The position numbers were made by a program, and so were the translations under genes. From a bacterium (GTDB lineage Bacteria > Electryoneota > RPQS01), in NCBI GenBank assembly GCA_036504735.1, contig DASXUQ010000009.1, positions 1 to 64,000 of the forward strand: 64,000 nucleotides of DNA, read 5' to 3'. Under the pieces are notes generated by a model, which had not been told where the DNA came from, made no database searches, and saw only the letters and a list, made by a program, of their open reading frames with translations. Below are positions 22,985 to 36,226 of this stretch, piece after piece. The stretch's first letter is position 1; each line of letters begins with the position of its first letter.

Positions 22985-23347
22985 TTATTTCATCGAGAGG
23001 CAGGTGAAGATCCGGCGCGAACTGCCGTCCTGCAACGGAATGGGCGCTTCCATGATGCGGCGGATACTGTCGGGCGAAATCCGGGCCGGATCATAGGTGA
23101 ACACCGCGCGATGCTCGGTGGCATACGTTTCGATGGCCGCAACGCCGGGGGTCTCTTCGTAGAGACGGGTAAGAAAGGCCGCGGTTCCTTTGCATTTCAA
23201 ACCCTGCACCGTGCAGGAAATCTTCTGGCCGCCCTTTCCACCAAGGGAGATATTCGTGGTGGGCTGTGTGAAGACTGAGCGCAGCACATAGCCTCCCAAC
23301 AGCGTCGCCAGCACCAAAAGGGGCAGAATATAGCGGGGGAGTTTCAT
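22985..23347 (-). CDS. membrane-anchored HMA-like (ferredoxin-fold) protein with atypical C-x6-C site
   Basis: Signal/anchor. KISCTVQGLKCKGTAAFLTRL...VAAIETYATEHRAVFTYDP resembles an HMA domain but lacks MxCxxC. Confidence 0.4.
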   Translation of the reverse strand: MKLPRYILPLLVLATLLGGYVLRSVFTQPTTNISLGGKGGQKISCTVQGLKCKGTAAFLTRLYEETPGVAAIETYATEHRAVFTYDPARISPDSIRRIMEAPIPLQDGSSRRIFTCLSMK

Positions 23348-23366
23348 CCGAGTCCTCCGGCAAAGG

Positions 23367-24146
23367 TTACAGGGTGGCTTTCAGTTCCAGAGCGTCTTTG
23401 ACCGGACACGCATCCACGCACTCCAGACAAAGGGTGCAGTCGCGGTGACGCAGCTTGACCACCGATTGCGGAGCAAGGTTCTGCGGACACTTTTTCTGGC
23501 ACACATTGCACATGGTGCAGGTCGCTTCGTTACGAACGACCTTCAGGACACCGAGGCGGCTGAGCGGGTCCAGCGTGGCTCCCAGCGGGCAGAGGTAGCG
23601 GCAGAAGAACATGGGGATAAGCAGCGCGCCCGCCACCAGAGCGCCCAGCACGATCCAGCTCGTGATGCCCAGTGCGCCGTGCCCGAAGCCGGAGAAGATC
23701 AGAAAGAAAGGATCGTAGCCGCGCAGAATCAGTTCGCCACTCTTGTAGGTAAAGTACAGCGTCAGCGCAAGGGCCAAATAGCGCAGACCTTTTAGAGCGC
23801 TGTTCACTTTGGGCGAAGGTTGCGGCCTTTTCTTCCAGAATAGCCCCGTGAGACGCGCGCCAAGCTCTCCTAAGAAGCCGATAGGACATGCCCAGCCACA
23901 GAAAGCTTTCTTGGCAACGAGCGCCAGCAACAGCACGCCGATCAGCAGCGAGAGATTCAGCGGCCCGAGAGTGCAACTGAATTCACGAGTCTGATACAGG
24001 CCCCAGAGGCTTTCCACTCCGCCGAACGGACAGAAATCTTCGAAGGACCGGCCGCCAAAACCGAGCGCCAGATAAGCCACGAGGGCAAGGATGACGCTGA
24101 GCAACGAGTAGCGCAGCCAGCGGGTGGAGGGAGTCCGTTTCTTCAT
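23367..24146 (-). CDS. NapH/MauN-like membrane polyferredoxin (4Fe-4S binding)
   Basis: CGWACPIG and CRYLCPLG TM-associated motifs. C-terminal CTMCNVCQKKCP ... CTLCLECVDACP clusters. Confidence 0.7.
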   Translation of the reverse strand: MKKRTPSTRWLRYSLLSVILALVAYLALGFGGRSFEDFCPFGGVESLWGLYQTREFSCTLGPLNLSLLIGVLLLALVAKKAFCGWACPIGFLGELGARLTGLFWKKRPQPSPKVNSALKGLRYLALALTLYFTYKSGELILRGYDPFFLIFSGFGHGALGITSWIVLGALVAGALLIPMFFCRYLCPLGATLDPLSRLGVLKVVRNEATCTMCNVCQKKCPQNLAPQSVVKLRHRDCTLCLECVDACPVKDALELKATL

Positions 24147-24256
24147 ACGCGAACATATCCTGAGATAGATGTGGGCGGCACAAGCACAAAAGGCGGGCAG
24201 GATCCGTCCCGCCCGCCTTCTGCTCGATAAACCTGTTCGATTCTTACGCCGTCCGG

Positions 24257-24667
24257 TTACTTCTTGGGAGTGCAGCCAGCTTTAGCTTTCATGGGGCAGC
24301 CGCCGCCGGACATGGTGGCGCACTTGGTGGGATCACACGTTCCCGCCGCAGCGGTTTTGACCGCGCCGGTCTTCATCATTGCTCCGTGGTTCTGGCAATT
24401 GCCGGGGCAGCGACCGTCTTTCTTGCACTGCTCCATGTTGACGCACTTTCCGTCCTTATGATGGACCGCCATGCTGTCGCACACGCCGTCCTTGTTGCCG
24501 TCCACGAACTTTGCACAGGTCGCCGCGCAGGTATGGCCTGCCATGGTGGCCGTCGAATCTTTTGCCGGGGCCTTCATGGCCGCATCTTCCGAGAAGGCGG
24601 ATCCGGCGAGACCGATCACAAACATCAACGCCAGCGAGATGAACACCAAGGTCGCACTCTTCTTCAT
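24257..24667 (-). CDS. secreted Cys/Met/His-rich putative metal-binding protein
   Basis: Signal peptide. 16 Cys in 110 aa (HTCAATCAKF, CDSMAVHH, CPGNCQNHGAMM, CDPTKC, GGGCPM). Confidence 0.55.
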   Translation of the reverse strand: MKKSATLVFISLALMFVIGLAGSAFSEDAAMKAPAKDSTATMAGHTCAATCAKFVDGNKDGVCDSMAVHHKDGKCVNMEQCKKDGRCPGNCQNHGAMMKTGAVKTAAAGTCDPTKCATMSGGGCPMKAKAGCTPKK

Positions 24668-24693
24668 GACTTTCCCTTTCGAAATCGAATGAC

Positions 24694-25233
24694 TTATTTC
24701 CTATCGTTCCGGATATGATTTTTCTGGCAACCGGTTTGTTCGCCGCTCATTATGCCGGCATGTCCCACGCAGCCGCCGTTGTTGCGCATCATGGCAAACA
24801 GGGTTGTCTGCTGCGTGGCGTTCAGCACACGTTTTTCCTCGAGCAGATGATTAACTACCAGCCGCTGCATGCGTTGCTGCACCGTGCCGATCTCACCTTC
24901 CTTGGCCTCAATCGCCACCGGGTTAACCTGCGGCTCGGCCAGCAGGTCCATCAGTTGCCCCCGCAGAGAGTCGGCGGTGGTGCCCAGTGTTGCGGATGCC
25001 GTTTGGAAATCCCGCTGCAGTGGTTCCAGGGAGCGCCATTGTTCGGCGGTAGTTCCCAGCGCGCGGTGCAGAGGGCACCAGATGCGGCAACTGCTGTCCG
25101 GCATGCAGACGGTCTTTTGAGGTCTGGCCGCGCGCGCGGTCTGCGTGAGCGTCTTCATTCCCCACGCAGTGACGAACGCGACGTTCAGGCTGACCGAAAG
25201 GATGATGAGCAGAATGCGAGTTCTGGAGTGCAT
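24694..25233 (-). CDS. periplasmic heavy-metal sensor (Metal_resist/Spy-CpxP-like, LTxxQ motifs)
   Basis: Signal anchor. LNATQQ-type repeats. Typical partner of ECF/anti-sigma pairs. Confidence 0.55.
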   Translation of the reverse strand: MHSRTRILLIILSVSLNVAFVTAWGMKTLTQTARAARPQKTVCMPDSSCRIWCPLHRALGTTAEQWRSLEPLQRDFQTASATLGTTADSLRGQLMDLLAEPQVNPVAIEAKEGEIGTVQQRMQRLVVNHLLEEKRVLNATQQTTLFAMMRNNGGCVGHAGIMSGEQTGCQKNHIRNDRK

Positions 25234-25236
25234 GGC

Positions 25237-25740
25237 TTACCTCCCGCCATCGGTTGGAGCGGCGAGAGTCAAGTAGACTTCCGCAGGCGATCCGCCGGGG
25301 CTGTCGGACAGGTAGTCCGCATGAATGGAAGAGGCAGGATCGGGATCGGGCACGGTGGCCGCAACCATCGGAACACGCGTCACACCGGCAGAATTCCATC
25401 CCAGCCATGTTCCTACGGACAGGCCGACCATCAGCACGATTACCGCAGCGGCGCGCATGGTGGACGGTAGGGCCTCCCACCAGTCTATATGCAGCAGGCG
25501 ACGCGGCTTGGGGGAAGCCAGTTGGGTTTGACCGCGCGCCACAATCCGTGCCGCAAGCCCTGCCGGGACCTCGGGGATCACGCTTTCCTGCACTGTGGAG
25601 GCCAGCCGTTCGAGCCGCGCCATTTCCTCCCGGCACTTCTCGCAGGAGCGCAGGTGTTCTTCCACCGCGGATCGCTCTGTGGCGGACAACTCGCGGTCGG
25701 CAAATGCGCCAAGCTGATTTCGAATTCTATCGCATGTCAC
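25237..25740 (-). CDS. anti-sigma factor (zf-HC2, single TM)
   Basis: HLRSCEKCR zinc finger. TM AAAVIVLMVGLSVGTWLGW. GTG 25740 preceded by AGGAGGAG. Confidence 0.7.
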   Translation of the reverse strand: MTCDRIRNQLGAFADRELSATERSAVEEHLRSCEKCREEMARLERLASTVQESVIPEVPAGLAARIVARGQTQLASPKPRRLLHIDWWEALPSTMRAAAVIVLMVGLSVGTWLGWNSAGVTRVPMVAATVPDPDPASSIHADYLSDSPGGSPAEVYLTLAAPTDGGR

Positions 25741-25810
25741 GGCTTTTGAACTCCTCCTATCTATAAACGGACAACCTTGCAAAATCCCCCGCCGTCCCTC
25801 AACTACCGAG

Positions 25811-26356
25811 CTAATCCCAGTCCTTTAAAGTATTTCCCAGTGCCTCGCGGCCTCTTGCCAGCAGTCGCTCCACCGCTTTTTCTGTCGTGTCCATGGCTTC
25901 AGCAATGTCGCGGTAACTGCAATCCTCGTAATAGCGGAGGATGATGGCCAGCCGCTGATTAGGAGGCAAGAGGGTAATCCCGCGCCGCACCGCTGAAGCT
26001 TGCTCCTCGCGGACGACAATTCCATCGGGCAACGGCGAAGTATCCGCACATTCGGGCAGTTCATCGCAGACCACAGGCCGTTTCTTTTCCATATGATCCA
26101 GGCACAGACGGCAAATAATGCGGGAGAGATAGGTTCGGAAGGACGCGGTGGGGCGGTAGCGCGCGGCGGCGGCCAGCAATCTTAGAAAGGCATCCTGCAC
26201 CAGATCTTCGGCATCTTCCCGGTTGCCGACAAAGCGGTACGCAACGCTCCACGCGAACGCCTGATGCCGCAGGACAATCTGTTCGAAAGCCTGCACATCT
26301 CCCTGGCCCGCGGCCAGCATCAGCTCGTCGTCGCGTGGAGTTTGAATCATGGCCAT
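25811..26356 (-). CDS. ECF RNA polymerase sigma factor
   Basis: Region 2 (DAEDLVQDAFL) and region 4 (SYRDIAEAMDTTEKAVERLLARGR). ATG 26356 or 26350. Confidence 0.85.
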   Translation of the reverse strand: MAMIQTPRDDELMLAAGQGDVQAFEQIVLRHQAFAWSVAYRFVGNREDAEDLVQDAFLRLLAAAARYRPTASFRTYLSRIICRLCLDHMEKKRPVVCDELPECADTSPLPDGIVVREEQASAVRRGITLLPPNQRLAIILRYYEDCSYRDIAEAMDTTEKAVERLLARGREALGNTLKDWD

Positions 26357-26387
26357 CAAATTAGCAAAATAACCGGCCCAAGTCAAA

Positions 26388-26415
26388 TGAAAGAACCAGC
26401 CCACGCTGGTTCTTT
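26388..26415. terminator. bidirectional hairpin terminator between YeeE-rhodanese and ECF genes
   Basis: gaaccagc ccac gctggttc flanked by A/T runs. Confidence 0.55.
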
Positions 26416-26453
26416 TTCGATACCATCCTGTTTGGGCAGCAACCCACTGCGGG

Positions 26454-27647
26454 TCAGCAGCCACCCTTGATCTTCTTCTCGGTCTTGACCGCCTTTGGCG
26501 CGATATTCTTGCCGGCATCAATCATGCGGGCAATCTCGGCGCGGGCGGTTTGACGGAAGGTCTTGACGTCGTTGTCCCAGCGGCTGCCGGTGGGCACAAA
26601 GGCTGTCGAGTCCAGAATGACATGCTTGAACGTCGGAAGTCCACCTTCAAGCGCCGCCACATTTTCATAACCGAGGCTCTGCAACAACAGGCAGCCCGCC
26701 TTCTCTTGTGCCTCGTCATCAGCCACGATCACCTTTTTAACATGCCGCTGCGAGAACAGCGCGGTATTATCTTTGCTGAAGAAATCACGCAGGGAAATGT
26801 TGCGGGATCCGGGAAGAGCCAGCTTGGCAAACTGCTCGGGGCTGCGGATGTCCACCATCTGCAGACGCGTCTCCTTGTCCACCAGAAGATATGCCAGTTC
26901 ATCCACGGGCATGACCTTGACCGGATGCGCGGCGACATACCCTGCACTGGAAACCGTGCTGATCATGTGCGCCTTGCGCTCGGGCAGCACCAAAAACACC
27001 AGCCCCAGGGCAAGCACGCCGATGGCCGCAAGGCGGTGCTTGGACAGATTGAAGTCCCGCGACAATGATGCGGAATTGACCTTGCGCTCAATAATGGTGG
27101 TGATGGCAAAGGCGCTCACCGCCACGGCAATCAGGATGAAGGCAAACAGTCCACCGGAAATTCCCAGAGAGTCATAGACCCGCACCGGACCTAAGGCGGT
27201 GGAGTTGAAGAAAGTTTTGAACAGCGGAAACATCTCGCCAAACACAAAGACCCCCAGCAGTCCGCCGCCCACAAAGAACATCGCATCCACTTTGCCAATG
27301 GCCGCCGCGCACACACTGGTGCCGGGGCAATAGCCGCCCAGCACAAAACCTAATCCCATAATGGCCCCACCCACAACCGCCGGCCAGAGCCAGGTGGGAT
27401 TGATGTAGATGGCTTCGGTATCGAGCAGGCCCGCGTAGCCGAGCAGCAGGATGCCGCTCATCGCCGTTACGGCGGCAGTGAAAAAGACACGCAGCACGGT
27501 GAAATCATAGCCATAGAAGACTCCGGCCAGGCGGCGCGAGGACGAAAAGCCCGCCTGTTCCAGCACAAAGCCAAAGGCTATTCCCAGGATCAGCGCCACA
27601 ATTAAATTGAGCTGATCGGAGATGAGGTCAGGAACGAAGGGTCCCAT
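26454..27647 (-). CDS. YeeE/YedE-family sulfur-compound transporter fused to C-terminal rhodanese domain
   Basis: GGYCPGTSVCAAAIG motif. Downstream rhodanese-like block (VDIRSPEQF...). Confidence 0.7.
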   Translation of the reverse strand: MGPFVPDLISDQLNLIVALILGIAFGFVLEQAGFSSSRRLAGVFYGYDFTVLRVFFTAAVTAMSGILLLGYAGLLDTEAIYINPTWLWPAVVGGAIMGLGFVLGGYCPGTSVCAAAIGKVDAMFFVGGGLLGVFVFGEMFPLFKTFFNSTALGPVRVYDSLGISGGLFAFILIAVAVSAFAITTIIERKVNSASLSRDFNLSKHRLAAIGVLALGLVFLVLPERKAHMISTVSSAGYVAAHPVKVMPVDELAYLLVDKETRLQMVDIRSPEQFAKLALPGSRNISLRDFFSKDNTALFSQRHVKKVIVADDEAQEKAGCLLLQSLGYENVAALEGGLPTFKHVILDSTAFVPTGSRWDNDVKTFRQTARAEIARMIDAGKNIAPKAVKTEKKIKGGC

Positions 27648-27668: not shown

Positions 27669-28181
27669 TTAGATCCAGAGTTTGCGGAAGAAGTAGGCGA
27701 CGGCGAAACCCGTGCCGAAGATCGCAAGCATGGCGATAAACCCTGCGGTGGACAGTACCGCCATGCCGCTTAAGGCCGCGCCGCTGGTACAGCCCCGCGC
27801 AAACTGGGCTCCCGCGCCAAACAGGGCTCCGCCGATCACGGCGAAAATCCAGCGCAGTTTCGGCTGCACGCGCGGTCCGGATTCCGTCACCACTTTCAGG
27901 CGATCCGATACGAGACCCGAGATAAACGCACCGATCAGCACGCCGATCACTTCGAACACCAGCCACGATTTCATCGGGCTCTCCTTGCCCTCGCCGAAGT
28001 AGGACCCGAAGAAGGTGGAGTGTTCGGCATGAGCCGGAGCAATCGCATGGACCGTCGTCAGAACCACGTCCTTGACCGCGCCGCTTGCTCCGAGGCCGCG
28101 GCCCGTGATAAAGATGGTCGCCAGCAGCACGAGGCCCAGAAAGAAACCGGCGAGGTAGGGATTCATGTATTTGGTGTTCAT
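27669..28181 (-). CDS. YeeE/YedE-family membrane protein
   Basis: ARGCTSGAALSG motif. ATG 28181 in ATGA overlap with the cytochrome b stop. The upstream 130 aa of the track ORF overlaps cytochrome b and is rejected. Confidence 0.7.
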   Translation of the reverse strand: MNTKYMNPYLAGFFLGLVLLATIFITGRGLGASGAVKDVVLTTVHAIAPAHAEHSTFFGSYFGEGKESPMKSWLVFEVIGVLIGAFISGLVSDRLKVVTESGPRVQPKLRWIFAVIGGALFGAGAQFARGCTSGAALSGMAVLSTAGFIAMLAIFGTGFAVAYFFRKLWI

Positions 28182-28780
28182 TTCAGATCCTCGTAGCCGG
28201 TGATCATTGCTTTCAGATTGGAGGTCACGCTCGATCCGGTGGTGATGAGATACACGTGTGCGATAAAGAAGCAGACCAGCGCAAACGCGCCGAGCGTATG
28301 GACCAGCGCAATGGCTTTCAGGCCGCCGACATTCAGGCTGATCACGTCGTGCCGCTGCGGATAGCGGTAGAACATGTACAACAGCCCGGATACCGCCATT
28401 ACCGGAATCACCAGCGCCTTCAATCCCGCGTAGACGAGCTTCTGCAACGGGTTCAGCTTGCTCAGTACCTGCTTTTTGGTAGGATGCGGAGCGCCGCGGA
28501 AGATGCCAAAGATGTAATAGTTGACCTGAGCGCGCAGATGCTCCCGTGTGGGCAGGTACTGCCGCCATTCGCCCGTGGTGAAATGCCAGAAGACGGCGAA
28601 GACAATCAACACGAGAAAGCCAATGGCCGAGCTGTTGTGCAGAGCGACCGCCTGCCGGAAGCCGAAGAAGTGAATGGCGCCGTGGATCTCGAAGCCGGTT
28701 ACGCCAAGCATAAGAATCACGGCCGCCTGCGTCCAGTGCCAGAAGCGCTCAAAGGCGCGATAGACATAGTCGTGTTTCAT
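28178..28780 (-). CDS. b-type cytochrome membrane subunit (PhsC/FdnI/HyaC-like)
   Basis: 200 aa, 4-5 TM with conserved His. Adjacent to a multiheme c. Confidence 0.65.
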   Translation of the reverse strand: MKHDYVYRAFERFWHWTQAAVILMLGVTGFEIHGAIHFFGFRQAVALHNSSAIGFLVLIVFAVFWHFTTGEWRQYLPTREHLRAQVNYYIFGIFRGAPHPTKKQVLSKLNPLQKLVYAGLKALVIPVMAVSGLLYMFYRYPQRHDVISLNVGGLKAIALVHTLGAFALVCFFIAHVYLITTGSSVTSNLKAMITGYEDLK

Positions 28781-28781
28781 A

Positions 28782-30344
28782 TCAGCGGCCTCCCTTCCGC
28801 TTGCGGCTCACGACGACCCGGGCGCCACCGTGCGCTATCACTCCTGCAAGGGTCATCAGAATCATCGCCGCGCCGAATTTTTCCAGCCCCGCGCTGTAAT
28901 TGCGGCCCGGCATGTAGAAGTCGTTCAGGCCGGCCAAGCGGCTATCGGTGCGCGTATGGCATTCATTGCACTGCACCACGCTGGTTTTCGGCGAGACCAT
29001 GTGATTGACAGGCCAGTACATTTCGGTTTCGGCAAAACCGTATTTGCCGCTGTAAGGAAGGTCGACCCGCTTCATGCCTTCTTCAGCGGCACGGTTCCAG
29101 TTGAATTCCTTCCAGTAGCCGCCATCACCGGCGACTGTTGAAAACGTCTTGGGCTGAATCAGATAATGGTTCTGCGTATCGTAAATCTGTTTGGTGCGCA
29201 TGATCTTCACCGGGATGATCTTCGCCTCGGGATCGTTGTATGCGCCATAGAGCGGGTTGATCTTCAGCGGCTGGGAAGGATCGAAGGTATCACCGATCAG
29301 GTAATGGGACGCCGTGCCGTTGAACCACACATAGTCCGGCTTCAGATTCTTGCCCCAGCGGAAGGAGCCCTTGATCGACATGTACACATCGTCGCCCGTC
29401 GAGTCCTTCTCTTCGTACGGCTGACCGTCCTTGAGTTTTCCCGCCGTGGACCAGTCCCAATCGGTCTTGGTGGGATTGACTTTGGCATAGGTGGGGATGT
29501 GGCAAGTTTGACAGGCGACCTTGATGGTGTGCTTGTTCAATACATCATCGGAATGCGGCAGGGCGCTGTGGCAGCTTTCGCACTCGGCGCGGTTACGGTT
29601 CATCGAAGAGACCGAGAAGGCCTTGCCGAGCATCTGATGCTTGCTGGCCGTGTGGCAATCCACGCACTGCATGTCTTCGCCGTCGGAGGCCATGTGCACG
29701 TCGACATCGCGGGACGGGTCAAACAGAGCTTTCTCCAGATCGCCGTGCTTGACATTGTTCCCGCCGCCGCCGAAAAAGTGACAGGTTCCGCAGTTCGTGC
29801 GCTGCGGTTTTCCCACGTGCTGCGCCACAGTGGCCAAGTCCACCGACGGATCGGGATTTCCCGCGCCGGCTTTGATGTAGCTGTTGCTGTTGTCATGGCA
29901 GGCGAGGCAATCGACGTTGTAGGCATTCTGAAAATCGAAGGAAGGGCTGTCATAGCCGTAGCCGATGTGGCAGCGGTTGCAGCTCGGTTCGTTGCCGGAA
30001 ATGCCGATGCAAAAATTATTCAGGATGTTTCGCTTGCCGACAGTACGAATGCCCTTGCCTTCGACATACTCTGTGCGTTCCCAATTCCAGTGGGACGACT
30101 GCATCACTTCCTTGTGCCGTTCGGTGTGACAGGAGATACAGGCTTCGGTAACCTCCTGCGGTTTGCCGAAGCGCTTTTGCAGCACCGCGAACCGGGTGTG
30201 ATCTACCGAAGGCTTTTCCTTCTTCTGATAGCGGGCTTTCAGTGCGGCCAAGGGTGTTTGATCCTCACTCTTTTTCGGCAGCACGCTCAGCATGAGGGCA
30301 AGCACGGCACCGAAAACAAGCAGGACCAGAAAAATACGTTTCAT
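28782..30344 (-). CDS. octaheme c-type cytochrome (tetrathionate reductase Otr-like family)
   Basis: Eight CxxCH (CISCH, CNRCH, CLACH, CGTCH, CVDCH, CESCH, CQTCH, CNECH). Signal peptide and C-terminal hydrophobic anchor. Confidence 0.6.
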   Translation of the reverse strand: MKRIFLVLLVFGAVLALMLSVLPKKSEDQTPLAALKARYQKKEKPSVDHTRFAVLQKRFGKPQEVTEACISCHTERHKEVMQSSHWNWERTEYVEGKGIRTVGKRNILNNFCIGISGNEPSCNRCHIGYGYDSPSFDFQNAYNVDCLACHDNSNSYIKAGAGNPDPSVDLATVAQHVGKPQRTNCGTCHFFGGGGNNVKHGDLEKALFDPSRDVDVHMASDGEDMQCVDCHTASKHQMLGKAFSVSSMNRNRAECESCHSALPHSDDVLNKHTIKVACQTCHIPTYAKVNPTKTDWDWSTAGKLKDGQPYEEKDSTGDDVYMSIKGSFRWGKNLKPDYVWFNGTASHYLIGDTFDPSQPLKINPLYGAYNDPEAKIIPVKIMRTKQIYDTQNHYLIQPKTFSTVAGDGGYWKEFNWNRAAEEGMKRVDLPYSGKYGFAETEMYWPVNHMVSPKTSVVQCNECHTRTDSRLAGLNDFYMPGRNYSAGLEKFGAAMILMTLAGVIAHGGARVVVSRKRKGGR

Positions 30345-30434
30345 ACTCCATCTTCCTTCCTTGCGAATTTTCGTGCAAGGATAGGCTGTGAAAAGCCTGC
30401 CGTTCATCATCGACACGGCAGGCAGCTATCGTTG

Positions 30435-30824
30435 TTATGTGAGGCTGGCCAGCGCCTTTTTCATCAGACTTCGCGCCTGCGCCCCATGCGGCGTCAAGAC
30501 GGGATCGCCAAGGGTTTCTACCACGGTGCCAGGATCGAGCGCCCAGACAGAGACGGTGTCATCCTCTTCCTGCCGCAGGCATACGGAGCAAGGCAGAAAC
30601 ACGCCGACTTCCGGGCGCACCGCCAGCGCTCGGTGGGCGATCTGCGGATTGCAGGCGCCGAGTATCCGGTAGGGCGCGGTGTCCACACCCAGCTTCTCCT
30701 TGAGCACCTTGTCCGCTTCGATCCGGGTCAGGATTCCGAAGCCCGATTCTTTCAGCGCGGCGGTGATGCGCGTTTCCACATCATCGATAGTGCCATGCGC
30801 GCGAGTGGATAGCACGAAGTTCAT
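30435..30824 (-). CDS. DUF302 domain protein
   Basis: GFGILTRIEADKVLKEKLGVDTAPYRILGACNP. Confidence 0.8.
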   Translation of the reverse strand: MNFVLSTRAHGTIDDVETRITAALKESGFGILTRIEADKVLKEKLGVDTAPYRILGACNPQIAHRALAVRPEVGVFLPCSVCLRQEEDDTVSVWALDPGTVVETLGDPVLTPHGAQARSLMKKALASLT

Positions 30825-30827
30825 GGT

Positions 30828-31217
30828 TCAGGAGTCCTTCACGACCGGCAGCGGCGCCAGTTTGTCGAGCTTCTGCCGCAGGGTCTCGATGGGAATCAAG
30901 CCCACCACCTGATCCACGATCTTGCCGTCCTTGATAAACATTAGGGTTGGGATGCTGCGGATGCGAAAGGCGGAGGCGGTCTGCATGTTCTGTGACACGT
31001 TCAGCTTGAAGATGTTCACACGTCCCACATATTCCGGGCCGAGGTCCCGCAGTAAACCGCCCATGACCTGGCAAGGCATGCAGGTCGGCGACCAGAAGTC
31101 CAGCAGTACCGGGAGTTCGGATTTAAGAATATCCTGATCGAAGGTGGCGTCGCTGGTTTCCATCGGCTTGCCCGGCTTAACCTCGCCGCCATTGAAGAGG
31201 GATTTGAAAATACTCAT
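30828..31217 (-). CDS. thioredoxin (variant WSPTCMPC active site)
   Basis: Trx fold. ATG 31217. Confidence 0.8.
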   Translation of the reverse strand: MSIFKSLFNGGEVKPGKPMETSDATFDQDILKSELPVLLDFWSPTCMPCQVMGGLLRDLGPEYVGRVNIFKLNVSQNMQTASAFRIRSIPTLMFIKDGKIVDQVVGLIPIETLRQKLDKLAPLPVVKDS

Positions 31218-31279
31218 CGTCTGTGCTCCTTGCACGTTCCGTTATTATCCTGCATCTTCATAAACTAAGAATCCATTTG

Positions 31280-31945
31280 TCAGCCGTGCACCACGGGCAT
31301 TCCCGCCGCTTTCCATTCGGCCACGCCATCGCCGAGGCGGATCGCTTCGAAGCCCTTGCTGCGCAGTACCCGCACAGCTTCTCCCGCCAGCACGCAGTAC
31401 GGTCCGCGGCAATAGGCCACAATCTGCTGTCCCTGCGGGAGACGGTCCAGATGGCTTTTCAACTTGTCCAGCGGAATGGAGAGCGCGTGAGGAATATGCT
31501 CGGCGGCATACTCATCTTCCGGCCTGACATCCAGCATGATAATCTTTCCGCCCTTGGCCAGCTTCAGGAGCTTGTTGCGGTCGATGATCTCGACCTCTTT
31601 AGGATCATCGGTGATGTCGGAGAGCACGCGCTCGACTTCGGCCAGGCGGGACTGGGCGACCTTCTTCATATTGCTGACCAGATCATAGACCTGTCCGTCG
31701 GCCAACCGATAGAACACGTAGATTCCTTCGCGCCGGGTCTCCACCAATCCCGCACCTCTTAGAACCTGCAGGTGCCGCGAGGTGTTGGCAATGGTCATTC
31801 CGGTGTTGGCTACCAGCGTCTCGACACTCTTCTCGCATTGGTGCAAAAGTTCTAAGAGTTCCAAGCGTTTAGGGCTGGACAGTGCGTGTCCAATTCTGGC
31901 GAACTGCTCGTTGAGCTTGTCTTTGATATCCCGGACGGTCGGCAT
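31280..31945 (-). CDS. ArsR-family HTH regulator fused to rhodanese domain
   Basis: ATG 31945 with AGAAGGAG SD. Rhodanese active-site Cys in YCRGPYC. Confidence 0.75.
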   Translation of the reverse strand: MPTVRDIKDKLNEQFARIGHALSSPKRLELLELLHQCEKSVETLVANTGMTIANTSRHLQVLRGAGLVETRREGIYVFYRLADGQVYDLVSNMKKVAQSRLAEVERVLSDITDDPKEVEIIDRNKLLKLAKGGKIIMLDVRPEDEYAAEHIPHALSIPLDKLKSHLDRLPQGQQIVAYCRGPYCVLAGEAVRVLRSKGFEAIRLGDGVAEWKAAGMPVVHG

Positions 31946-31961
31946 AATTTCTCCTTCTATC

Positions 31962-31981
31962 ATTCAATCGAACGCTTGAAT
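31962..31981. promoter_or_regulatory. inverted repeat ATTCAA-N8-TTGAAT 17 nt upstream of ArsR-rhodanese start
   Basis: attcaatcgaacgcttgaat. Confidence 0.45.
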
Positions 31982-32059
31982 ATACGAAAAAGATCCACCA
32001 GAGTCAAGTCCCCCCTGTCGGAACATTACTATTTCCATGGTAGCTGTGAACTTAAGTCA

Positions 32060-32115: not shown

Positions 32116-32565
32116 TTACTTTGCGTTCAGGTAAGCGCGGACTTCATTCTGCACATACGTGAGATAATCCGGTTTTGCTCCCACCAGCTCCCAGATCTTC
32201 TCGCAATTCTTCCAGTGTGCCTGCTTGCCATCCTCCAGACGAACGATGATCAGCGACTTTGTTTCCAGCTTGAAATCGTTCCAGAAGTGCTCATACTCCT
32301 TTTGGCCCGTGTCGTAGCTGTGCCATTCAACGGTGCCCTGTTGCAGCTCTTTGGCAAAGCCCGTCTCCACGGCCTCTTTGGCAAAGGCTTCCATGTTGAT
32401 ACAGGTCTCACAACGGGGCGTAAAGTAAAGGTAGTAAACCACCACTTTGGGATTGGACGCGGCTTGAGCGTGGACGCTGTCGGCAACGGCAGGGACGGCC
32501 TCTTCGGCCCGCGCGGGCAGCGCCGCCAGGATCACGTACAGTATTATCTGAAACGCGAACTTCAT
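32116..32565 (-). CDS. secreted thioredoxin-like CxxC protein, ArsF-like family
   Basis: Signal peptide. VVYYLYFTPRCETCINMEAF resembles the thioredoxin-like 'nitrophenyl nitroreductase subunit ArsF' family. Family assignment from memory. Confidence 0.4.
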   Translation of the reverse strand: MKFAFQIILYVILAALPARAEEAVPAVADSVHAQAASNPKVVVYYLYFTPRCETCINMEAFAKEAVETGFAKELQQGTVEWHSYDTGQKEYEHFWNDFKLETKSLIIVRLEDGKQAHWKNCEKIWELVGAKPDYLTYVQNEVRAYLNAK

Positions 32566-32583
32566 GCTTCGGTGCTCTTTGGG

Positions 32584-33240
32584 TTAGTGAACAGGATTGG
32601 ATGCGGTGGACGTGCCTTTATCGGGAAGCATCGGCGCGAGGGTAAGAGCCGCTGCGGCCAGCAGGCCGAGGTCTTCCCATATTCCCATACTGAAGGCCGC
32701 GGTGGATCCGACCAGGACCCACAACAGCGGAATCACCAGCAGAAGTTTGGGCGGCTTGGGATCGACCCAGAGCAAAAGCCCCAGAGAAAAAATAGTGGTT
32801 GGGCATGGCAGCCCGAAGGTCGGCGCGGAGGGATAGACATGGCCAAGGAAATATCCTAAGATCGGATAGACCACCAGACTGTACGTCATCAGCATCGAGC
32901 CCCTGATTCCCGGGCAACCCTTCCGGAGGCTGAACGTCAACTGGCCGCGGAACACACCGCTATAGAGAATCAAGAGTCCCTGCACGACAAACAGCGCTCC
33001 GAAAAGATACGCGGCGCGGTTGATACCGCTGAAGTAGATCCAATGATAGACCACACCCATCCAGATCCAGAGCAGCCCCAGCAGCGCACTGATGATTCTG
33101 CCCCGTTGCCCGCCGGGCCGGATGGCCAGAAAGATCGCTGCCAATGCGGCGGCGTTCAGCAGGATCTGTGCCGGCCAGACCGCCTGATTGTAGCCGGCAA
33201 ACACCGCCAGAAACTGTTCCACTGTAAACGGTAAGCTCAT
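32584..33240 (-). CDS. conserved integral membrane protein (DUF-type, MSLPFTVEQFLAVF...)
   Basis: 218 aa, about 6 TM. Confidence 0.55.
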   Translation of the reverse strand: MSLPFTVEQFLAVFAGYNQAVWPAQILLNAAALAAIFLAIRPGGQRGRIISALLGLLWIWMGVVYHWIYFSGINRAAYLFGALFVVQGLLILYSGVFRGQLTFSLRKGCPGIRGSMLMTYSLVVYPILGYFLGHVYPSAPTFGLPCPTTIFSLGLLLWVDPKPPKLLLVIPLLWVLVGSTAAFSMGIWEDLGLLAAAALTLAPMLPDKGTSTASNPVH

Positions 33241-33273
33241 CTTACACTCCGCTCAAAGATTTTCGGCTTGAAA

Positions 33274-33975
33274 TCAGAAGAGTTTCCAGACCATATAGAG
33301 GCCGCCCAGAATCACCAGGGCACCGCAAATGCGTTTGATCCAGCGCGTCACACCCGAGCGCTCGGTCCAACTCAAATAGTCGCCAATGCGGCTGGCCAGC
33401 ACGCCCGCGACCACGATGACCGCGCAGTGCCCGAGGGCAAAGGCTCCCAGCAAGGTCACTGCACCTCCGACATTGGTGGTCGCCGTTTTGAAGACCACGC
33501 CCAGCACCGGCGCCATAAAGGCAAAGGTGCACGGACCCAGCCCAATGCCGAAGATCAGTCCCAGCGTCAGCGCCGACAGAAGTCCCGAGTAGCTCTGGCC
33601 GGAAAAATGCAGACCGTTCCAGGACAGCGGCAGGATGTCCATCAGGTACAGCCCAATAGCCAGAAAGACCAGCGCCACCAGCACGTTCCCCACCATGCCG
33701 ATGTCCCCCAGCAGGCGTCCGAGCATCGCGGTGGCCAGTCCGATGGCGGCAATCGTCACCAGAATGCCCAGAGCAAATGTGACGGAAAGCCAGAACACGC
33801 GCCGTGCGTTGGCCGACTCCTGACTGCTGATAAAACCGATCAGCAAGGGGATGCTCGCCAGATGGCAGGGACTGAGCAGAATGCTCGCGATGCCCCAGAA
33901 CACGGCAGCGACAATTCCCAGCCAAAGGCTCGCTGCGAGTCCCTCATTCAGTGTCGTAAACAGGCTTTCGATCAT
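33274..33975 (-). CDS. ccdA: cytochrome c biogenesis / thiol-disulfide transporter CcdA (DsbD family)
   Basis: SPCHLASIPLL and GPCTFAFMAPV Cys-in-TM motifs. ATGA overlap with the upstream gene. Confidence 0.8.
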   Translation of the reverse strand: MIESLFTTLNEGLAASLWLGIVAAVFWGIASILLSPCHLASIPLLIGFISSQESANARRVFWLSVTFALGILVTIAAIGLATAMLGRLLGDIGMVGNVLVALVFLAIGLYLMDILPLSWNGLHFSGQSYSGLLSALTLGLIFGIGLGPCTFAFMAPVLGVVFKTATTNVGGAVTLLGAFALGHCAVIVVAGVLASRIGDYLSWTERSGVTRWIKRICGALVILGGLYMVWKLF

Positions 33976-34367
33976 GATAGCGGCGTCAACCCCTGCGCTT
34001 TAAGAAATTTGTCGATTTCCTCTTCGGCAAAGAAGCCTTCGTGGCGCATCAGTTCCTTGCCGGACGAATCGAGAAACACCTGCGTCGGAATCAGCTTAAT
34101 GCCGAAGGCTTGGGACTGTGCGCGGTCCTTCATGACATCGTGGAAGATCACTTTGACCTGTCCCGCATAGCGCGTCTCGATGGCCTTCATCACCGGCTGC
34201 ATCTTTTTGCAGGGGATACAGGTTGTCGAGCCCAGTTCCACAAAGGTGATCCTGGCCGCTGACGTGCTCGCCGTTTTGCTTACCGCGGCTTTGTCGGCGC
34301 CGCCACATGAGATCAGCAGCACGGCAATTCCCACAACAGCCGAAAATAAAAATGTCCGGCGTGCCAT
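33972..34367 (-). CDS. TlpA/ResA-like periplasmic thioredoxin lipoprotein
   Basis: Lipobox LLISCGG. TCIPCKKM active site. Confidence 0.75.
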   Translation of the reverse strand: MARRTFLFSAVVGIAVLLISCGGADKAAVSKTASTSAARITFVELGSTTCIPCKKMQPVMKAIETRYAGQVKVIFHDVMKDRAQSQAFGIKLIPTQVFLDSSGKELMRHEGFFAEEEIDKFLKAQGLTPLS

Positions 34368-34384
34368 TGGCAGTTCTCCGCAGG

Positions 34385-34618
34385 TTAGACCAGCAGTTTC
34401 TTGATTTCGTCCATCGACAACACGCGGCCTACCGCCTTGACGTCGCCGTCGATCACCAGCCCCGGTGTCTGCCAGACTTTGAACTTCATGATCTCGCTGA
34501 TTTCCGAGACCTTTTCCAGAGTGTAGTCGAGGCCCAGATCATTGGCGGCCAGTTCCGCGTTTTCCTGAAGCTTTTTGCAGCGGGCACAACCGGTGCCCAG
34601 AATCTGAATCTTTCGCAT
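34385..34618 (-). CDS. thioredoxin family 'redox-active disulfide protein 2'
   Basis: MRKIQILGTGCARCKK... Small Trx-like protein, common in ars loci. GTG 34627 is an alternative start. Confidence 0.8.
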   Translation of the reverse strand: MRKIQILGTGCARCKKLQENAELAANDLGLDYTLEKVSEISEIMKFKVWQTPGLVIDGDVKAVGRVLSMDEIKKLLV

Positions 34619-34631
34619 GGTCAGCACTCGC

Positions 34632-35651: not shown

Positions 35652-35703
35652 ATGATGGTGTGTACGGGACTCGGGAATGCTCACCGCGATTATCCTGTAA
35701 AGG

Positions 35704-36090: not shown

Positions 36091-36116
36091 TCATCACCTC
36101 CATCTTGCTGAACATC

Positions 36117-36146
36117 AATATAACCGTATAGACGGATAGATGCAAG
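36117..36146 (-). promoter_or_regulatory. candidate ArsR operator, second copy
   Basis: aatataaccgtatagacggatagatgcaag. CCGT-N4-ACGG palindrome. Same 27-56 nt spacing to the ATG as the first copy. Confidence 0.5.
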
Positions 36147-36226
36147 AGGAGGCTTTGTCGCAATTTACTCCCCGGCACAGCATGTTTATGTTACGTCAAT
36201 GCCGATATTAACAACCACATGCTCGT

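What the first reader, a model, noticed from the sequence alone, without database searches (positions are those of the whole stretch)
28178..30344. Octaheme cytochrome c with eight canonical CxxCH plus cytochrome b anchor
Eight CxxCH in about 520 aa with an Otr-like arrangement, paired with a PhsC-like cytochrome b. This is a quinol-linked periplasmic reductase of undetermined substrate (tetrathionate, nitrite, hydroxylamine or sulfite are precedents). It sits next to two YeeE thiosulfate-type transporters.
Basis: partly seen in the sequence, partly recalled or inferred. Interest (0 to 1): 0.55.

Follow-up and report, generated by a model that had tools for sequence, protein, structure and literature searches.

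The report
Membrane-anchored Otr reductase with sulfur channel
This is a genuine eight-haem Otr-type (tetrathionate-reductase family) enzyme, anchored to the membrane beside its own cytochrome b and always encoded with a two-piece YeeE sulfur channel, which suggests its natural job is sulfur chemistry and gives a way to test that.

Summary
Window 28782-30344 (-) encodes a 520-aa protein with eight CxxCH motifs. It passes the curated Otr-family model (TIGR04315, 593 vs 375 bits) and aligns almost end to end with Shewanella Otr (PDB 1SP3), including the distal Lys ligand and the free Cys. It is not NrfA, ONR or MccA.

Unlike Shewanella Otr, it ends in a transmembrane helix with an invariant His. 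A four-helix, four-His cytochrome b (28178-28780) follows 1 nt later and folds like FdnI and HyaC.

The two "YeeE transporters" are the two halves of one split PmpAB-type channel. The second half carries a rhodanese-like domain with no catalytic Cys, predicted to be periplasmic, and an invariant Lys-rich C-terminal GGC tail.

Otr, cytochrome b and both YeeE halves form a fixed cassette in every untruncated locus among 80 species (78/78 and 75/75). This includes cultured Fulvitalea axinellae.

Most likely function: a menaquinol-driven periplasmic reductase of tetrathionate or a related S-S sulfur anion, coupled to a YeeE-type sulfur channel.

The gene is already annotated, and an Otr-cytochrome b cluster was noted once before. 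I found no description of the YeeE/GGC coupling.

The parts
31979..32007 (-). Sigma70-like promoter (TTGACT-17-TATATT) in front of the operon
   Evidence: 10 of 12 consensus match. It lies just after a hairpin plus T-run that ends the upstream gene. This is a consensus match only.
31962..31981 (.). Perfect palindrome ATTCAA-N8-TTGAAT overlapping the -10 element; candidate operator of the ArsR-type regulator
   Evidence: Read directly from the sequence. The operator role is inferred.
31280..31963 (-). ArsR/SmtB-type HTH regulator fused to a rhodanese domain with an intact catalytic loop (YCRGPYC). The true start may be Met7 at 31945, which follows a GAAGGAG site.
   Evidence: PF01022 and PF00581; NF033788 at 76 bits vs cutoff 55; weak BigR and TsoR similarity. 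The same regulator lies upstream of Otr in the KSB1 (L006) and Calditrichota (L004) loci and a few others, 7 of 80 in all.
30828..31235 (-). Thioredoxin with a CMPC motif, probably cytoplasmic
   Evidence: PF00085; TIGR01068 at 92.6 bits vs cutoff 96.8. A thioredoxin is also adjacent in L004, L005 and L038.
30435..30824 (-). DUF302 protein; a local addition, not part of the conserved cassette
   Evidence: PF03625; found next to Otr in 0 of 80 other species.
30391..30423 (-). 8-bp GC-rich hairpin (GCCTGCCG / CGGCAGGC, 13-nt loop) followed by TTTT, between DUF302 and otr; possible attenuator
   Evidence: Read from the sequence. Not tested.
28782..30344 (-). Otr-family octahaem cytochrome c, 520 aa: N-terminal signal or anchor, eight CxxCH, C-terminal TM helix
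   Evidence: TIGR04315 at 592.9 bits (cutoff 375) and PF11783 at 231 bits; PDB 1SP3 at E 2.6e-132; all eight motifs invariant in 81 sequences.
30033..30035 (-). Codon of Lys104, the equivalent of Shewanella Otr Lys56 (distal ligand of catalytic haem 2)
   Evidence: Aligned to K56 of 1SP3; 81 of 81 conserved; kept in nearly all distant relatives. The ligand identity in Otr is from Mowat et al. 2004, recalled from memory.
30009..30011 (-). Codon of Cys112, the only Cys of the mature protein outside a haem motif (Otr Cys64 equivalent)
   Evidence: 81 of 81 conserved; aligned to the NNFC motif of 1SP3.
28824..28874 (-). C-terminal transmembrane helix (residues 491-507) with invariant His505 (codon 28830-28832), followed by a basic cytoplasmic tail
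   Evidence: Absent from 1SP3. His505 is present in all 78 sequences that reach this position and in all TM-anchored relatives and Otr-cytochrome b fusions aligned. The tail has a mean K+R of 4.9.
28178..28780 (-). Four-helix dihaem cytochrome b (200 aa) with haem-ligand His15, His48, His161 and His175
   Evidence: PF01292. All four His align to His of HyaC and are nearly invariant or invariant. AF2 model pLDDT 74.8 with four long helices. The only significant Foldseek matches are FdnI 1KQF_C and HyaC 4GD3_A/6G94_A. It is immediately downstream of Otr in 78 of 80 species.
27669..28181 (-). YeeE half 'a' (170 aa, PmpA-like, matching the C-terminal half of YeeE) with invariant Cys131 in RGCTSGA. 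Its ATG overlaps the cytochrome b stop (ATGA).
   Evidence: PF04143 profile positions 217-308; 75 of 80 species; Cys131 in 76 of 76.
26454..27647 (-). YeeE half 'b' (PmpB-like, matching the N-terminal half of YeeE; invariant Cys107) plus two further TM helices, a rhodanese-like domain and a C-terminal tail
   Evidence: PF04143 positions 10-192 and PF00581; 75 of 80 species; Cys107 in 76 of 76; AF2 secondary structure; rhodanese fold matches.
26628..26876 (-). Rhodanese-like domain (residues 258-340) without a catalytic Cys; predicted periplasmic
   Evidence: Asp/Glu sits at the GlpE Cys65 position. The AF2 loop after the central strand is only 3 residues. Topology comes from the positive-inside rule plus StYeeE homology.
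26457..26510 (-). Disordered Lys-rich C-terminal tail (residues 380-397) ending in invariant Gly-Gly-Cys (codons 26457-26465)
   Evidence: GGC in 71 of 71 and 44 of 44; pLDDT 26-46. Fulvitalea ends ...KKKKKAQGGCT.
26390..26415 (-). Terminator-like hairpin (11-bp stem) ending the operon
   Evidence: It is a consensus-type match and the T-run is weak.

Best explanation
The locus encodes a membrane-bound, quinol-dependent version of the Otr octahaem reductase. It is one half of a conserved four-gene sulfur module.

Shown:
- The 520-aa protein is a true Otr-family member, with eight haems, the distal Lys of the catalytic haem 2 and the free active-site Cys.
- It has a C-terminal transmembrane helix that Shewanella Otr lacks.
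- A translationally coupled four-helix, four-His cytochrome b of the FdnI/HyaC/PhsC type follows it.
- Two YeeE half-proteins follow the cytochrome b.
- The four genes occur together in all untruncated loci examined.

Inferred:
- Menaquinol is oxidised by the dihaem cytochrome b.
- Electrons cross the membrane to the periplasmic haem b and enter Otr near haem 8, whose motif is only about 28 residues before the anchor helix.
- They then run along the haem chain to the Lys-ligated haem 2.
- There a sulfur anion with an S-S bond is reduced, most likely tetrathionate to two thiosulfate.
- The two YeeE halves assemble into one PmpAB-like hourglass channel that moves the sulfur product, probably thiosulfate, across the membrane.
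- The rhodanese-like domain and the flexible Lys-rich GGC tail on one half sit in the periplasm beside Otr.
- In this genome an ArsR-rhodanese regulator and a thioredoxin head the operon, which suggests induction by reactive sulfur.
For: Otr membership:
- TIGR04315 scores 592.9 bits against a cutoff of 375, and PF11783 scores 231 bits.
- 1SP3 matches at E 2.6e-132 with all eight CxxCH, K56 and C64 aligned.
- K104, C112 and the haem motifs are invariant in 81 sequences.

Complex with cytochrome b:
- The gap between the two genes is 1 nt.
- Cytochrome b lies directly downstream in 78 of 80 species, and the two exceptions are contig ends.
- The pair persists at 38-43% identity and in Paracoccus.
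- Natural Otr-TM helix-cytochrome b fusion proteins exist.
- The fold matches only FdnI and HyaC. I recall both as anchors for partners held by one C-terminal helix.
- Soluble Otr relatives without the helix have no cytochrome b.

Sulfur link:
- Both YeeE halves are present in 75 of 80 species, and all five exceptions are contig ends.
- The cultured Fulvitalea axinellae has the same cassette.
- An independent architecture places a 39%-identical Otr beside a full-length YeeE and two rhodaneses.
- Literature reports otr next to soxY/soxZ in lucinid symbionts (PMC11237559).
- The Cys of each half matches the essential Cys91 and Cys293 of StYeeE.

Other:
- Topology analysis.
- Kadnikov et al. 2020 made the same quinone-pool proposal for an Otr + cytochrome b561 cluster (PMC7509429).
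Against: - No activity data exist for any member of this clade.
- Shewanella Otr also reduces nitrite and hydroxylamine in vitro (PMC4484225).
- Caldithrix, which has an Otr, was not shown to respire tetrathionate (PMC5317091).
- A transmembrane dihaem cytochrome b is unnecessary for a high-potential acceptor such as tetrathionate. It would dissipate membrane potential if quinol is oxidised on the cytoplasmic side, as proposed for PhsC. This hints at a lower-potential substrate or at the reverse direction.
- The YeeE halves match the thiosulfate (TsuA) and selenium (YedE) models only weakly, and no YeeD/TusA partner is in the cassette.
- The direction of transport is unknown.
- The periplasmic placement of the rhodanese-GGC part rests on charge bias and homology, not experiment.
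Confidence: 0.55

Rival explanations
1. It is a nitrite/hydroxylamine reductase for detoxification or ammonification, and the sulfur genes are unrelated passengers.
For: [quoted passage not shown] Otr is listed among DNRA enzymes in PMC11879220. The Lys-ligated catalytic haem resembles that of NrfA.
Against: The YeeE halves are linked in every untruncated locus of 80 species. A second, independent Otr-YeeE-rhodanese architecture exists. No nitrogen-cycle genes appear in the conserved neighbourhood. The regulators are thiol-, sulfur- or redox-type (ArsR-rhodanese, or MerR with a Cys-rich tail) rather than NsrR- or NarL-like.
Confidence: 0.13
2. The module runs in the oxidative direction. Otr oxidises a reduced sulfur compound in the periplasm (sulfide, polysulfide, sulfite or a carrier-bound sulfur). 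It passes electrons through an FdnI-like redox loop to menaquinone and so conserves energy.
For: The closest solved folds, FdnI and HyaC, work in the quinone-reducing direction (directions from established knowledge). A transmembrane dihaem b makes energetic sense for a low-potential donor. YeeE-like SoxT proteins serve sulfur oxidation (PMC11582611). otr occurs near soxYZ in sulfur oxidisers.
Against: The best sequence-family match of the cytochrome b is PhsC, which serves a reductase (93.6 bits, against 57 for the hydrogenase type and 45 for the formate dehydrogenase type). Otr is only known as a reductase. Thiosulfate/tetrathionate is too positive a couple to reduce menaquinone. The host clades (Ignavibacteria, KSB1, Calditrichota) are mostly organotrophs, as far as I know.
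Confidence: 0.12
3. It is a non-catalytic quinol oxidase like Geobacter CbcBA, which passes electrons to periplasmic or extracellular acceptors.
For: The architecture is the same: a four-helix b-type cytochrome plus a multihaem cytochrome c with a C-terminal TM helix bearing a His. CbcB homologues are annotated as 'thiosulfate reductase-like' and were reported in Calditrichota and Bacteroidota (bioRxiv 10.1101/2021.04.15.440034). One distant relative sits behind a sigma54 activator, like cbcBA.
Against: The catalytic signature is invariant: the distal Lys on haem 2 plus the free Cys. The protein is 'peptide-replete', like catalytic cytochromes. The invariant YeeE partnership has no role in electron export. 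No outer-membrane conduit genes lie in the conserved neighbourhood. Homology of CbcA to Otr could not be tested here.
Confidence: 0.07
4. The substrate is a selenium or tellurium oxyanion, and the YedE-like channel moves selenium.
For: Both halves hit YedE selenium-transporter models weakly. TIGR04315 and YeeE/YedE families include selenoprotein members (PMC13188914). In this window the operon lies among metal and thiol stress genes: ArsR, ArsP, CDF, DsbD, thioredoxins, and an ECF sigma with a Metal_resist protein.
Against: Those stress neighbours are not conserved in other species (0 of 80 for DUF302, anti-sigma and Metal_resist). The YedE hits are far below cutoff (23 vs 200 bits). No selenium-utilisation genes (selD, yedF) are in the cassette.
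Confidence: 0.05

Closest known systems
Shewanella oneidensis octahaem tetrathionate reductase Otr (SO_4144, PDB 1SP3)
   Same: Same family: TIGR04315 and PF11783, roughly 55% identity by eye over about 410 residues. All eight CxxCH, the distal Lys56 ligand and Cys64 are conserved.
   Different: Shewanella Otr is soluble and is fed via CymA and STC. The window protein has a C-terminal TM helix with an invariant His, its own cytochrome b and a YeeE partner. The soluble relatives examined are orphan genes.
'Otr and cytochrome b561' gene cluster noted in Ignavibacteriae MAG Ch128a (Kadnikov et al. 2020, PMC7509429)
   Same: The same pairing, and the same proposal that it accepts electrons from the quinone pool.
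   Different: It is a one-sentence genome annotation. The passages found do not mention the YeeE halves, the anchor-helix His, fusions or conservation.
Membrane anchors FdnI (formate dehydrogenase-N, 1KQF_C) and HyaC (hydrogenase-1, 4GD3_A)
   Same: Four-helix dihaem cytochrome b with His ligands on TM1, TM2 and two on TM4 spaced 14 apart. The periplasmic partner is held by one C-terminal TM helix (that last point is recalled, not verified here). These are the only significant fold matches.
   Different: About 18% identity. The partner is a multihaem cytochrome c instead of an Fe-S subunit. The likely direction is quinol oxidation rather than quinone reduction.
PhsC, cytochrome b subunit of Salmonella thiosulfate reductase PhsABC
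   Same: Best NCBIfam match (NF011582); a quinol-oxidising dihaem anchor of a periplasmic sulfur reductase.
   Different: The score of 93.6 is below the 204 cutoff. It lacks the N-terminal part of PhsC (the alignment starts at PhsC position 55). No PhsA/PhsB molybdoenzyme is nearby.
Geobacter sulfurreducens CbcBA
   Same: A b-type cytochrome plus a periplasmic multihaem c anchored by a C-terminal helix that carries a His proposed to serve the b haem.
   Different: CbcA has seven haems and is treated as an electron-transfer protein for extracellular respiration. Sequence homology to Otr was not tested, and it has no YeeE partner.
Split YeeE-family pair PmpA/PmpB, and full-length YeeE(TsuA)-YeeD(TsuB)
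   Same: Half-size proteins matching the N- and C-terminal halves of YeeE, each with one conserved Cys at the StYeeE Cys91 and Cys293 positions.
   Different: One half carries two extra TM helices, a rhodanese-like domain and a GGC tail. There is no YeeD/TusA partner. It is genetically tied to a respiratory cytochrome.
SoxY sulfur-carrier arm (C-terminal GGCGG)
   Same: A Cys in a Gly-Gly context at the flexible extreme C-terminus of a periplasmic protein, preceded by Lys and an aliphatic residue. The SoxY motif is from established knowledge.
   Different: The fold is entirely different (rhodanese-like, membrane-tethered), and no SoxZ is present. The resemblance is a lead, not a membership.

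Membership tests
Otr / TIGR04315 tetrathionate reductase family octahaem cytochrome c | Curated HMM score above the family cutoff over the full length | tested here: met
   592.9 bits vs cutoff 375; profile positions 1-440 of 440.
Otr / TIGR04315 tetrathionate reductase family octahaem cytochrome c | Eight canonical CxxCH motifs in the Otr order | tested here: met
   Eight motifs, each aligned to a 1SP3 motif, invariant in 81 homologues.
Otr / TIGR04315 tetrathionate reductase family octahaem cytochrome c | Distal Lys (Otr Lys56), remote from the haem motif, ligating catalytic haem 2 | tested here: met
   K104 aligns to K56 of 1SP3 and is conserved in 81 of 81. Actual ligation cannot be tested in silico here.
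Otr / TIGR04315 tetrathionate reductase family octahaem cytochrome c | Tetrathionate reductase activity | not testable with these tools
   Needs an enzyme assay.
NrfA pentahaem nitrite reductase | CxxCK active-site haem motif and a match to the NrfA model | tested here: not met
   No CxxCK. No NrfA family or PDB hit. The only unrelated weak hits are NrfH and NrfB.
ONR/HAO octahaem family and MccA sulfite reductase | Sequence match to HAO/ONR or MccA; the CX15CH motif of MccA | tested here: not met
   No such family among the NCBIfam, Pfam or PDB hits. Only one Cys lies outside the eight CxxCH motifs, so no extra haem motif is possible.
PF01292 / FdnI-HyaC-PhsC type dihaem cytochrome b | Pfam match, four TM helices and four conserved His ligands (TM1, TM2, two on TM4) | tested here: met
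   94.8 bits vs 30.1. H15, H48, H161 and H175 align to HyaC His and are nearly invariant or invariant across homologues. Four long helices. Foldseek top hits are 1KQF_C and 4GD3_A.
PhsC (thiosulfate reductase cytochrome b, NF011582 equivalog) | Score above the equivalog cutoff and association with PhsA/PhsB | tested here: not met
   93.6 bits vs cutoff 204. No molybdopterin or Fe-S subunit genes in the locus.
YeeE/YedE (PF04143) sulfur transporter family | Pfam match above cutoff | tested here: met
   64.2 and 55.2 bits vs cutoff 27.
TsuA/YeeE thiosulfate transporter (full-length, with the TsuB/YeeD partner) | Single polypeptide of about 330-350 aa with three conserved Cys, an equivalog-level score and an adjacent YeeD/TusA-like gene | tested here: not met
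   It is split into 170-aa and 397-aa proteins with one conserved Cys each. TsuA models score 48 and 16 bits against cutoffs of 400-645. No TusA-like gene is in the cassette.
PmpA/PmpB-type split YeeE pair | Two adjacent half-size proteins matching the C- and N-terminal halves of YeeE, each with one conserved Cys | tested here: met
   Profile positions 217-308 and 10-192. C131 and C107 are invariant. Definition from PMC11582611. The extra TM helices, rhodanese domain and tail are additions.
Catalytic rhodanese (sulfurtransferase) | Active-site Cys at the start of the six-residue loop after the central beta strand | tested here: not met
   Asp/Glu at the GlpE Cys65 position across the family (GlpE sequence recalled from memory). 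A three-residue loop in the AF2 model. The fold itself is rhodanese.
SoxY sulfur carrier | SoxY Ig-like fold with C-terminal GGCGG, partnered by SoxZ | tested here: not met
   Only the C-terminal GGC motif is shared. The fold is rhodanese-like and there is no SoxZ.
Geobacter CbcBA | Sequence homology of the c-type subunit to CbcA (GSU0594) and of the b-type subunit to CbcB (GSU0593) | not tested
Only the architecture was compared.

The most novel reading that the evidence does not exclude
The cassette is a periplasmic covalent sulfur relay. The Lys-rich, disordered C-terminal GGC tail on the membrane-tethered, catalytically dead rhodanese-like domain would act like the SoxY swinging arm. Its Cys would pick up tetrathionate or another sulfane species as a Cys-S-S-SO3- or persulfide adduct. 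It would present this to the Lys-haem/Cys active site of the neighbouring anchored Otr for reductive cleavage. It would then hand the product to the periplasm-facing Cys of the split YeeE pore, serving as a periplasmic 'fourth cysteine' that mirrors cytoplasmic YeeD. Otr's true substrate would then be a protein-bound sulfur adduct, and free tetrathionate only a mimic. That would explain why its physiological role has stayed unclear.
Probability: 0.2. Interest if true: 0.75.

Novelty: new variant of a known kind. Interest (0 to 1): 0.5.

Why it matters
Otr has been known structurally since 2004, but what it does in cells is unsettled. Candidates are tetrathionate, nitrite and hydroxylamine, and it is counted in metagenomes sometimes as a sulfur enzyme and sometimes as a nitrogen-cycle enzyme.

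A large clade spans Ignavibacteria and other Bacteroidota, KSB1, Calditrichota, Acidobacteriota and Elusimicrobiota. In it the enzyme is hard-wired to its own quinol-oxidising cytochrome b and to a YeeE-type sulfur channel. This gives a concrete, testable argument for a sulfur function. It also shows how the enzyme is connected to the quinone pool without CymA-type carriers.

The work identifies cultured strains for experiments: Fulvitalea axinellae DSM 100852 for the full cassette, and Paracoccus pantotrophus for Otr plus cytochrome b. It further suggests that the 'thiosulfate reductase cytochrome b' and 'YeeE/YedE transporter' annotations in these genomes belong to one machine. The invariant anchor-helix His and the GGC tail are specific mutational targets.

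Tried and rejected
1. NrfA, ONR/HAO and MccA placement was rejected. There is no CxxCK, no extra Cys for a CX15CH motif and no family or PDB hit.

2. The PhsC equivalog was rejected on score and on the absence of PhsAB.

3. I first took the first YeeE gene to be 137 aa. The correct 170-aa start overlaps the cytochrome b stop.

4. The idea that the local stress genes (DUF302, ECF sigma/anti-sigma, Metal_resist, ArsP, CDF) belong to the system was rejected. None is conserved next to Otr, and downstream neighbours are random.

5. The homologue search with the YeeE-rhodanese fusion returned only close orthologues. It could not show whether the fusion occurs without Otr.

6. A profile search of the cytochrome b against PDB sequences gave only marginal hits: HyaC at E 0.046, plus spurious light-harvesting helices. 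The fold search was needed.

7. The AF2 model of the YeeE half is of low confidence in the membrane part. No structural claim is made there, and the fold search matched only the rhodanese domain.

8. Literature searches found no description of an Otr-YeeE cassette. The library is open-access only, so absence is not proof.

9. Homology between CbcA/CbcB and this pair could not be tested, because no Geobacter sequence was accessible.

10. The 548-aa plus-strand ORF 29166-30812, antisense to otr, and its single CxxCH are treated as GC-rich antisense artefacts.

Full report
**Observation**

On the minus strand, ORF 28782-30416 contains eight CxxCH motifs and no CxxCK. Apart from the sixteen haem-motif cysteines it has one further Cys in the mature protein. 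The probable start is the ATG at 30344, preceded by GGAAGGAAG, which gives 520 aa. This is exactly the protein held in NCBI and JGI as P0001. No other ORF in the window has more than one CxxCH. The next ORF, 28178-28780 (200 aa), begins 1 nt after the stop and is PF01292 Ni_hydr_CYTB. Two PF04143 genes follow.

**Family of the cytochrome c**

- Against the PDB the only real hit is Shewanella Otr, 1SP3 (E 2.6e-132). The alignment covers residues 54-466 and pairs every haem motif.
- Lys104 aligns with Otr Lys56, which I recall from Mowat et al. 2004 as the distal ligand of catalytic haem 2. Cys112 aligns with the free Cys64.
- Both residues, and all haem motifs, are invariant in 81 sequences from 80 species. 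The Lys persists in nearly all distant relatives.
- Nothing links the protein to NrfA, ONR/HAO or MccA.

**What differs from Shewanella Otr**

The protein continues for about 55 residues beyond the end of 1SP3. This extension holds a conserved linker (GRL..L.GFY.PGRD), a hydrophobic helix (491-507) and a basic tail with mean K+R of 4.9. His505, inside that helix, is present in all 78 sequences that reach it. It is also present in every TM-anchored relative down to 38% identity. Soluble relatives end in a different motif (..ALGY.GDP) and are orphan genes. Shewanella OTR itself is soluble and is fed through CymA and STC, with a positive patch near haem VIII (PMC4484225). Here the haem VIII motif lies about 28 residues before the anchor, which fits electron entry from the membrane.

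**The cytochrome b**

- Four long helices are predicted (AF2, pLDDT 74.8).
- The only significant Foldseek matches are FdnI (1KQF_C) and HyaC (4GD3_A, 6G94_A), each at probability 1.0 and TM-score about 0.5.
- His15, His48, His161 and His175 align with His residues of HyaC and are nearly invariant or invariant across homologues. They have the TM4 spacing of 14 that I recall for FdnI His155/His169.
- The best NCBIfam match is PhsC, but at 93.6 bits against a cutoff of 204, and there is no PhsAB nearby. It is PhsC-like, not PhsC.
- As I recall the Fdh-N and hydrogenase-1 structures, the periplasmic partner is held by a single C-terminal helix, the arrangement seen here.
- A precedent for the anchor-helix His exists in Geobacter CbcBA. 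There a C-terminal His of CbcA is proposed as the fourth b-haem ligand, 'as in [NiFe] hydrogenases' (bioRxiv 10.1101/2021.04.15.440034).
- Here the cytochrome b already has four canonical His, plus the invariant His33, His66 and His99. The role of His505 (haem ligand or quinone site) is therefore unresolved.

**Evidence for a physical Otr-cytochrome b complex**

- The two genes are 1 nt apart.
- Cytochrome b is directly downstream in 78 of 80 species-level loci, and the two exceptions end at the contig edge.
- The pair persists in distant relatives and in Paracoccus pantotrophus.
- Natural fusion proteins join Otr, the His-bearing helix and the RFERFWHW... cytochrome b domain in one chain (P0132 and P0173).
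- An 'Otr and cytochrome b561' cluster was already noted in one Ignavibacteriae MAG, with the same quinone-pool idea (PMC7509429). The pairing itself is therefore not new.

**The YeeE genes**

- The 170-aa product (27669-28181) has an ATG that overlaps the cytochrome b stop. It matches the C-terminal half of the YeeE profile.
- The first ~190 residues of the 397-aa product (26454-27647) match the N-terminal half.
- This is the PmpA/PmpB arrangement, which Li et al. 2024 propose forms a heterodimer equivalent to one YeeE (PMC11582611).
- Each half has one invariant Cys, C131 in RGCTSGA and C107 in GGYCPGTS. By the PmpA/PmpB mapping of Li et al. these correspond to the essential Cys293 and Cys91 of StYeeE.
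- Both halves follow the cytochrome b in 75 of 80 loci. All five exceptions are contig truncations.
- The cultured Bacteroidota strain Fulvitalea axinellae DSM 100852 carries the identical four-gene unit on pFA1.
- A 39%-identical Otr sits in a different arrangement, beside a full-length YeeE and two rhodaneses. Others have reported otr beside soxY/soxZ (PMC11237559).
- Downstream neighbours are not conserved.
- The upstream neighbour is usually a regulator: MerR-type with a Cys-rich C-terminus in 42 of 77 loci, MarR in 5, and ArsR-rhodanese in this window and a few relatives.

**The fused domain and its tail**

After the YeeE half, the 397-aa protein has two more hydrophobic helices separated by a strongly basic loop (mean K+R 4.4). 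These are followed by a rhodanese-fold domain (Pfam; AF2 pLDDT 80-89; Foldseek rhodanese matches).

The catalytic Cys position is Asp/Glu throughout the family, and the active-site loop is only three residues long. The domain is not a sulfurtransferase in the usual sense.

The chain ends in a disordered, Lys-rich tail, K-K-x-K-K-[IV]-x-G-G-C. The tail is invariant in 44 of 44 and 71 of 71 sequences. Fulvitalea has ...QGGCT.

I combined the charge bias (N-terminus and odd loops lack K/R, even loops are basic) with the known StYeeE topology. In StYeeE the loops A and B with Cys22 and Cys91 are cytoplasmic, Cys293 is periplasmic and the C-terminus is fused to cytoplasmic YeeD. On that basis the extra pair of helices places the rhodanese-like domain and the GGC tail in the periplasm, on the same side as Otr. 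This is an inference, not a demonstration.

**Operon**

A sigma70-like promoter (32007-31979) overlaps a perfect ATTCAA-N8-TTGAAT palindrome (31981-31962). An 11-bp-stem hairpin follows the last gene (26415-26390). In between lie, in order: the ArsR-rhodanese regulator, thioredoxin, DUF302, a hairpin plus T4 (30423-30391), otr, the cytochrome b gene, yeeE-a, and yeeE-b-rhodanese. The host genome encodes T9SS-sorted proteins and a C25 peptidase. This fits the FCB-superphylum affiliation of the closest homologues.

**Mechanism**

The best-supported reading is a menaquinol-dependent periplasmic reductase. The steps are inferred, as follows:
1. Quinol is oxidised at the dihaem cytochrome b.
2. Electrons cross the membrane and enter at haem 8.
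3. They reach the Lys-ligated haem 2, where a sulfur anion containing an S-S bond is reduced. Tetrathionate to thiosulfate is the only sulfur reaction documented for the family.
4. The sulfur product passes through the split YeeE channel.

The sulfur assignment rests on gene linkage, not on chemistry. The dihaem transmembrane anchor is more than tetrathionate reduction would need. A lower-potential substrate or the reverse direction therefore remains possible.

Rivals are scored in the rivals section: nitrite/hydroxylamine reduction, oxidative operation, a CbcBA-like electron outlet, and selenium. The most novel reading not excluded is that the GGC tail is a SoxY-like covalent carrier that shuttles a sulfur adduct between Otr and the pore.

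**Novelty and verdict**

The gene is already annotated as an Otr-family cytochrome, and its cytochrome b partner has been mentioned once. I found four things undescribed:
- the four-gene cassette, present in every untruncated locus examined;
- the anchor-helix His;
- the Otr-cytochrome b fusions;
- the predicted periplasmic rhodanese-like domain with its GGC tail.

I rate it a new variant of a known kind, of moderate interest. It turns the open question of Otr's physiological substrate into experiments that can be done in cultured strains.

Noticed in passing
L007-L084 (e.g. L007:6467-6997, L003:7530-7997): In 42 of 77 species the gene directly upstream of otr is a MerR-family regulator of about 155-170 aa. 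Its C-terminal region is Cys-rich (consensus ...LIPCW....C....R..C.A.......CW........C....CR.C.VY). This could be a redox or Fe-S sensing domain specific to this cassette.
   Followed up: partly
P0121, P0128-P0130, P0134 (representative set): The Otr family contains proteins of about 1000-1400 aa with 12-22 CxxCH motifs. They have several Otr-like stretches, some ending in a cytochrome b domain.
   Followed up: no
Locus of P0149 (no DNA held); L090/L091; L092: Alternative Otr neighbourhoods exist. One has rhodanese, rhodanese, a full-length YeeE, a monohaem cytochrome c, Otr and a 168-aa unknown protein. DUF3373 proteins recur next to two distant Otr-cytochrome b pairs, and a 433-aa rhodanese protein lies near one of them.
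   Followed up: no
window 32116-37144: Directly upstream of the operon is a run of thiol and metal homeostasis genes. It comprises a 149-aa secreted protein, DUF6064, DsbD_TM, two thioredoxin-like proteins (131 aa and 80 aa), an ArsP-type permease, a second ArsR and a cation-diffusion facilitator. None is conserved next to otr elsewhere.
   Followed up: partly
window 22985-26521: Downstream of the operon lie an ECF sigma factor, a zf-HC2 anti-sigma factor and a Metal_resist (Spy/CpxP-like) protein. Further on are a 136-aa secreted Cys/Met/His-rich protein with no family, a 259-aa NapH-like Fer4_5 membrane protein and a 120-aa secreted protein. Together they look like an envelope metal-stress unit.
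   Followed up: no
window 30391-30423: A GC-rich 8-bp hairpin with a T4 run lies between DUF302 and otr, about 45 nt before the otr start. It may attenuate read-through from the regulator genes.
   Followed up: no
window 29166-30812 (+): A 548-aa open frame runs antisense to otr and carries one chance CxxCH. It is typical of GC-rich antisense frames and is not a gene.
   Followed up: yes
L095:8544-9115 (Paracoccus ferrooxidans pFER4): The cytochrome b downstream of the Paracoccus ferrooxidans Otr is split over two reading frames, probably a frameshift or pseudogene. It is intact in P. pantotrophus (L094:7544-8119). Neither locus has YeeE halves, and the Otr sits just after a suf/cysteine desulfurase cluster.
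   Followed up: partly
window 28178-28780 vs homologues: The window's cytochrome b is 200 aa, whereas most orthologues are called at 219-220 aa. The alignment consensus extends past the window protein's C-terminus, and Fulvitalea has an acidic C-terminal tail. In the window the yeeE-a start overlaps the cytochrome b stop instead.
   Followed up: partly
window 14680-17235 and 39677-44695: An 851-aa protein has six CHRD domains and a T9SS sorting tail. A 1672-aa C25-peptidase (gingipain-like) protein is also present. Both point to an FCB-superphylum host.
   Followed up: no
L002/L003:12942-16400: In one Bacteroidota lineage the cassette is followed, after a methyltransferase, by a Cys/Met PLP enzyme, DsrC, a 207-aa unknown protein and a CCG-domain Fe-S protein (HdrD-like). 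This hints at cytoplasmic sulfur trafficking downstream of the channel.
   Followed up: no
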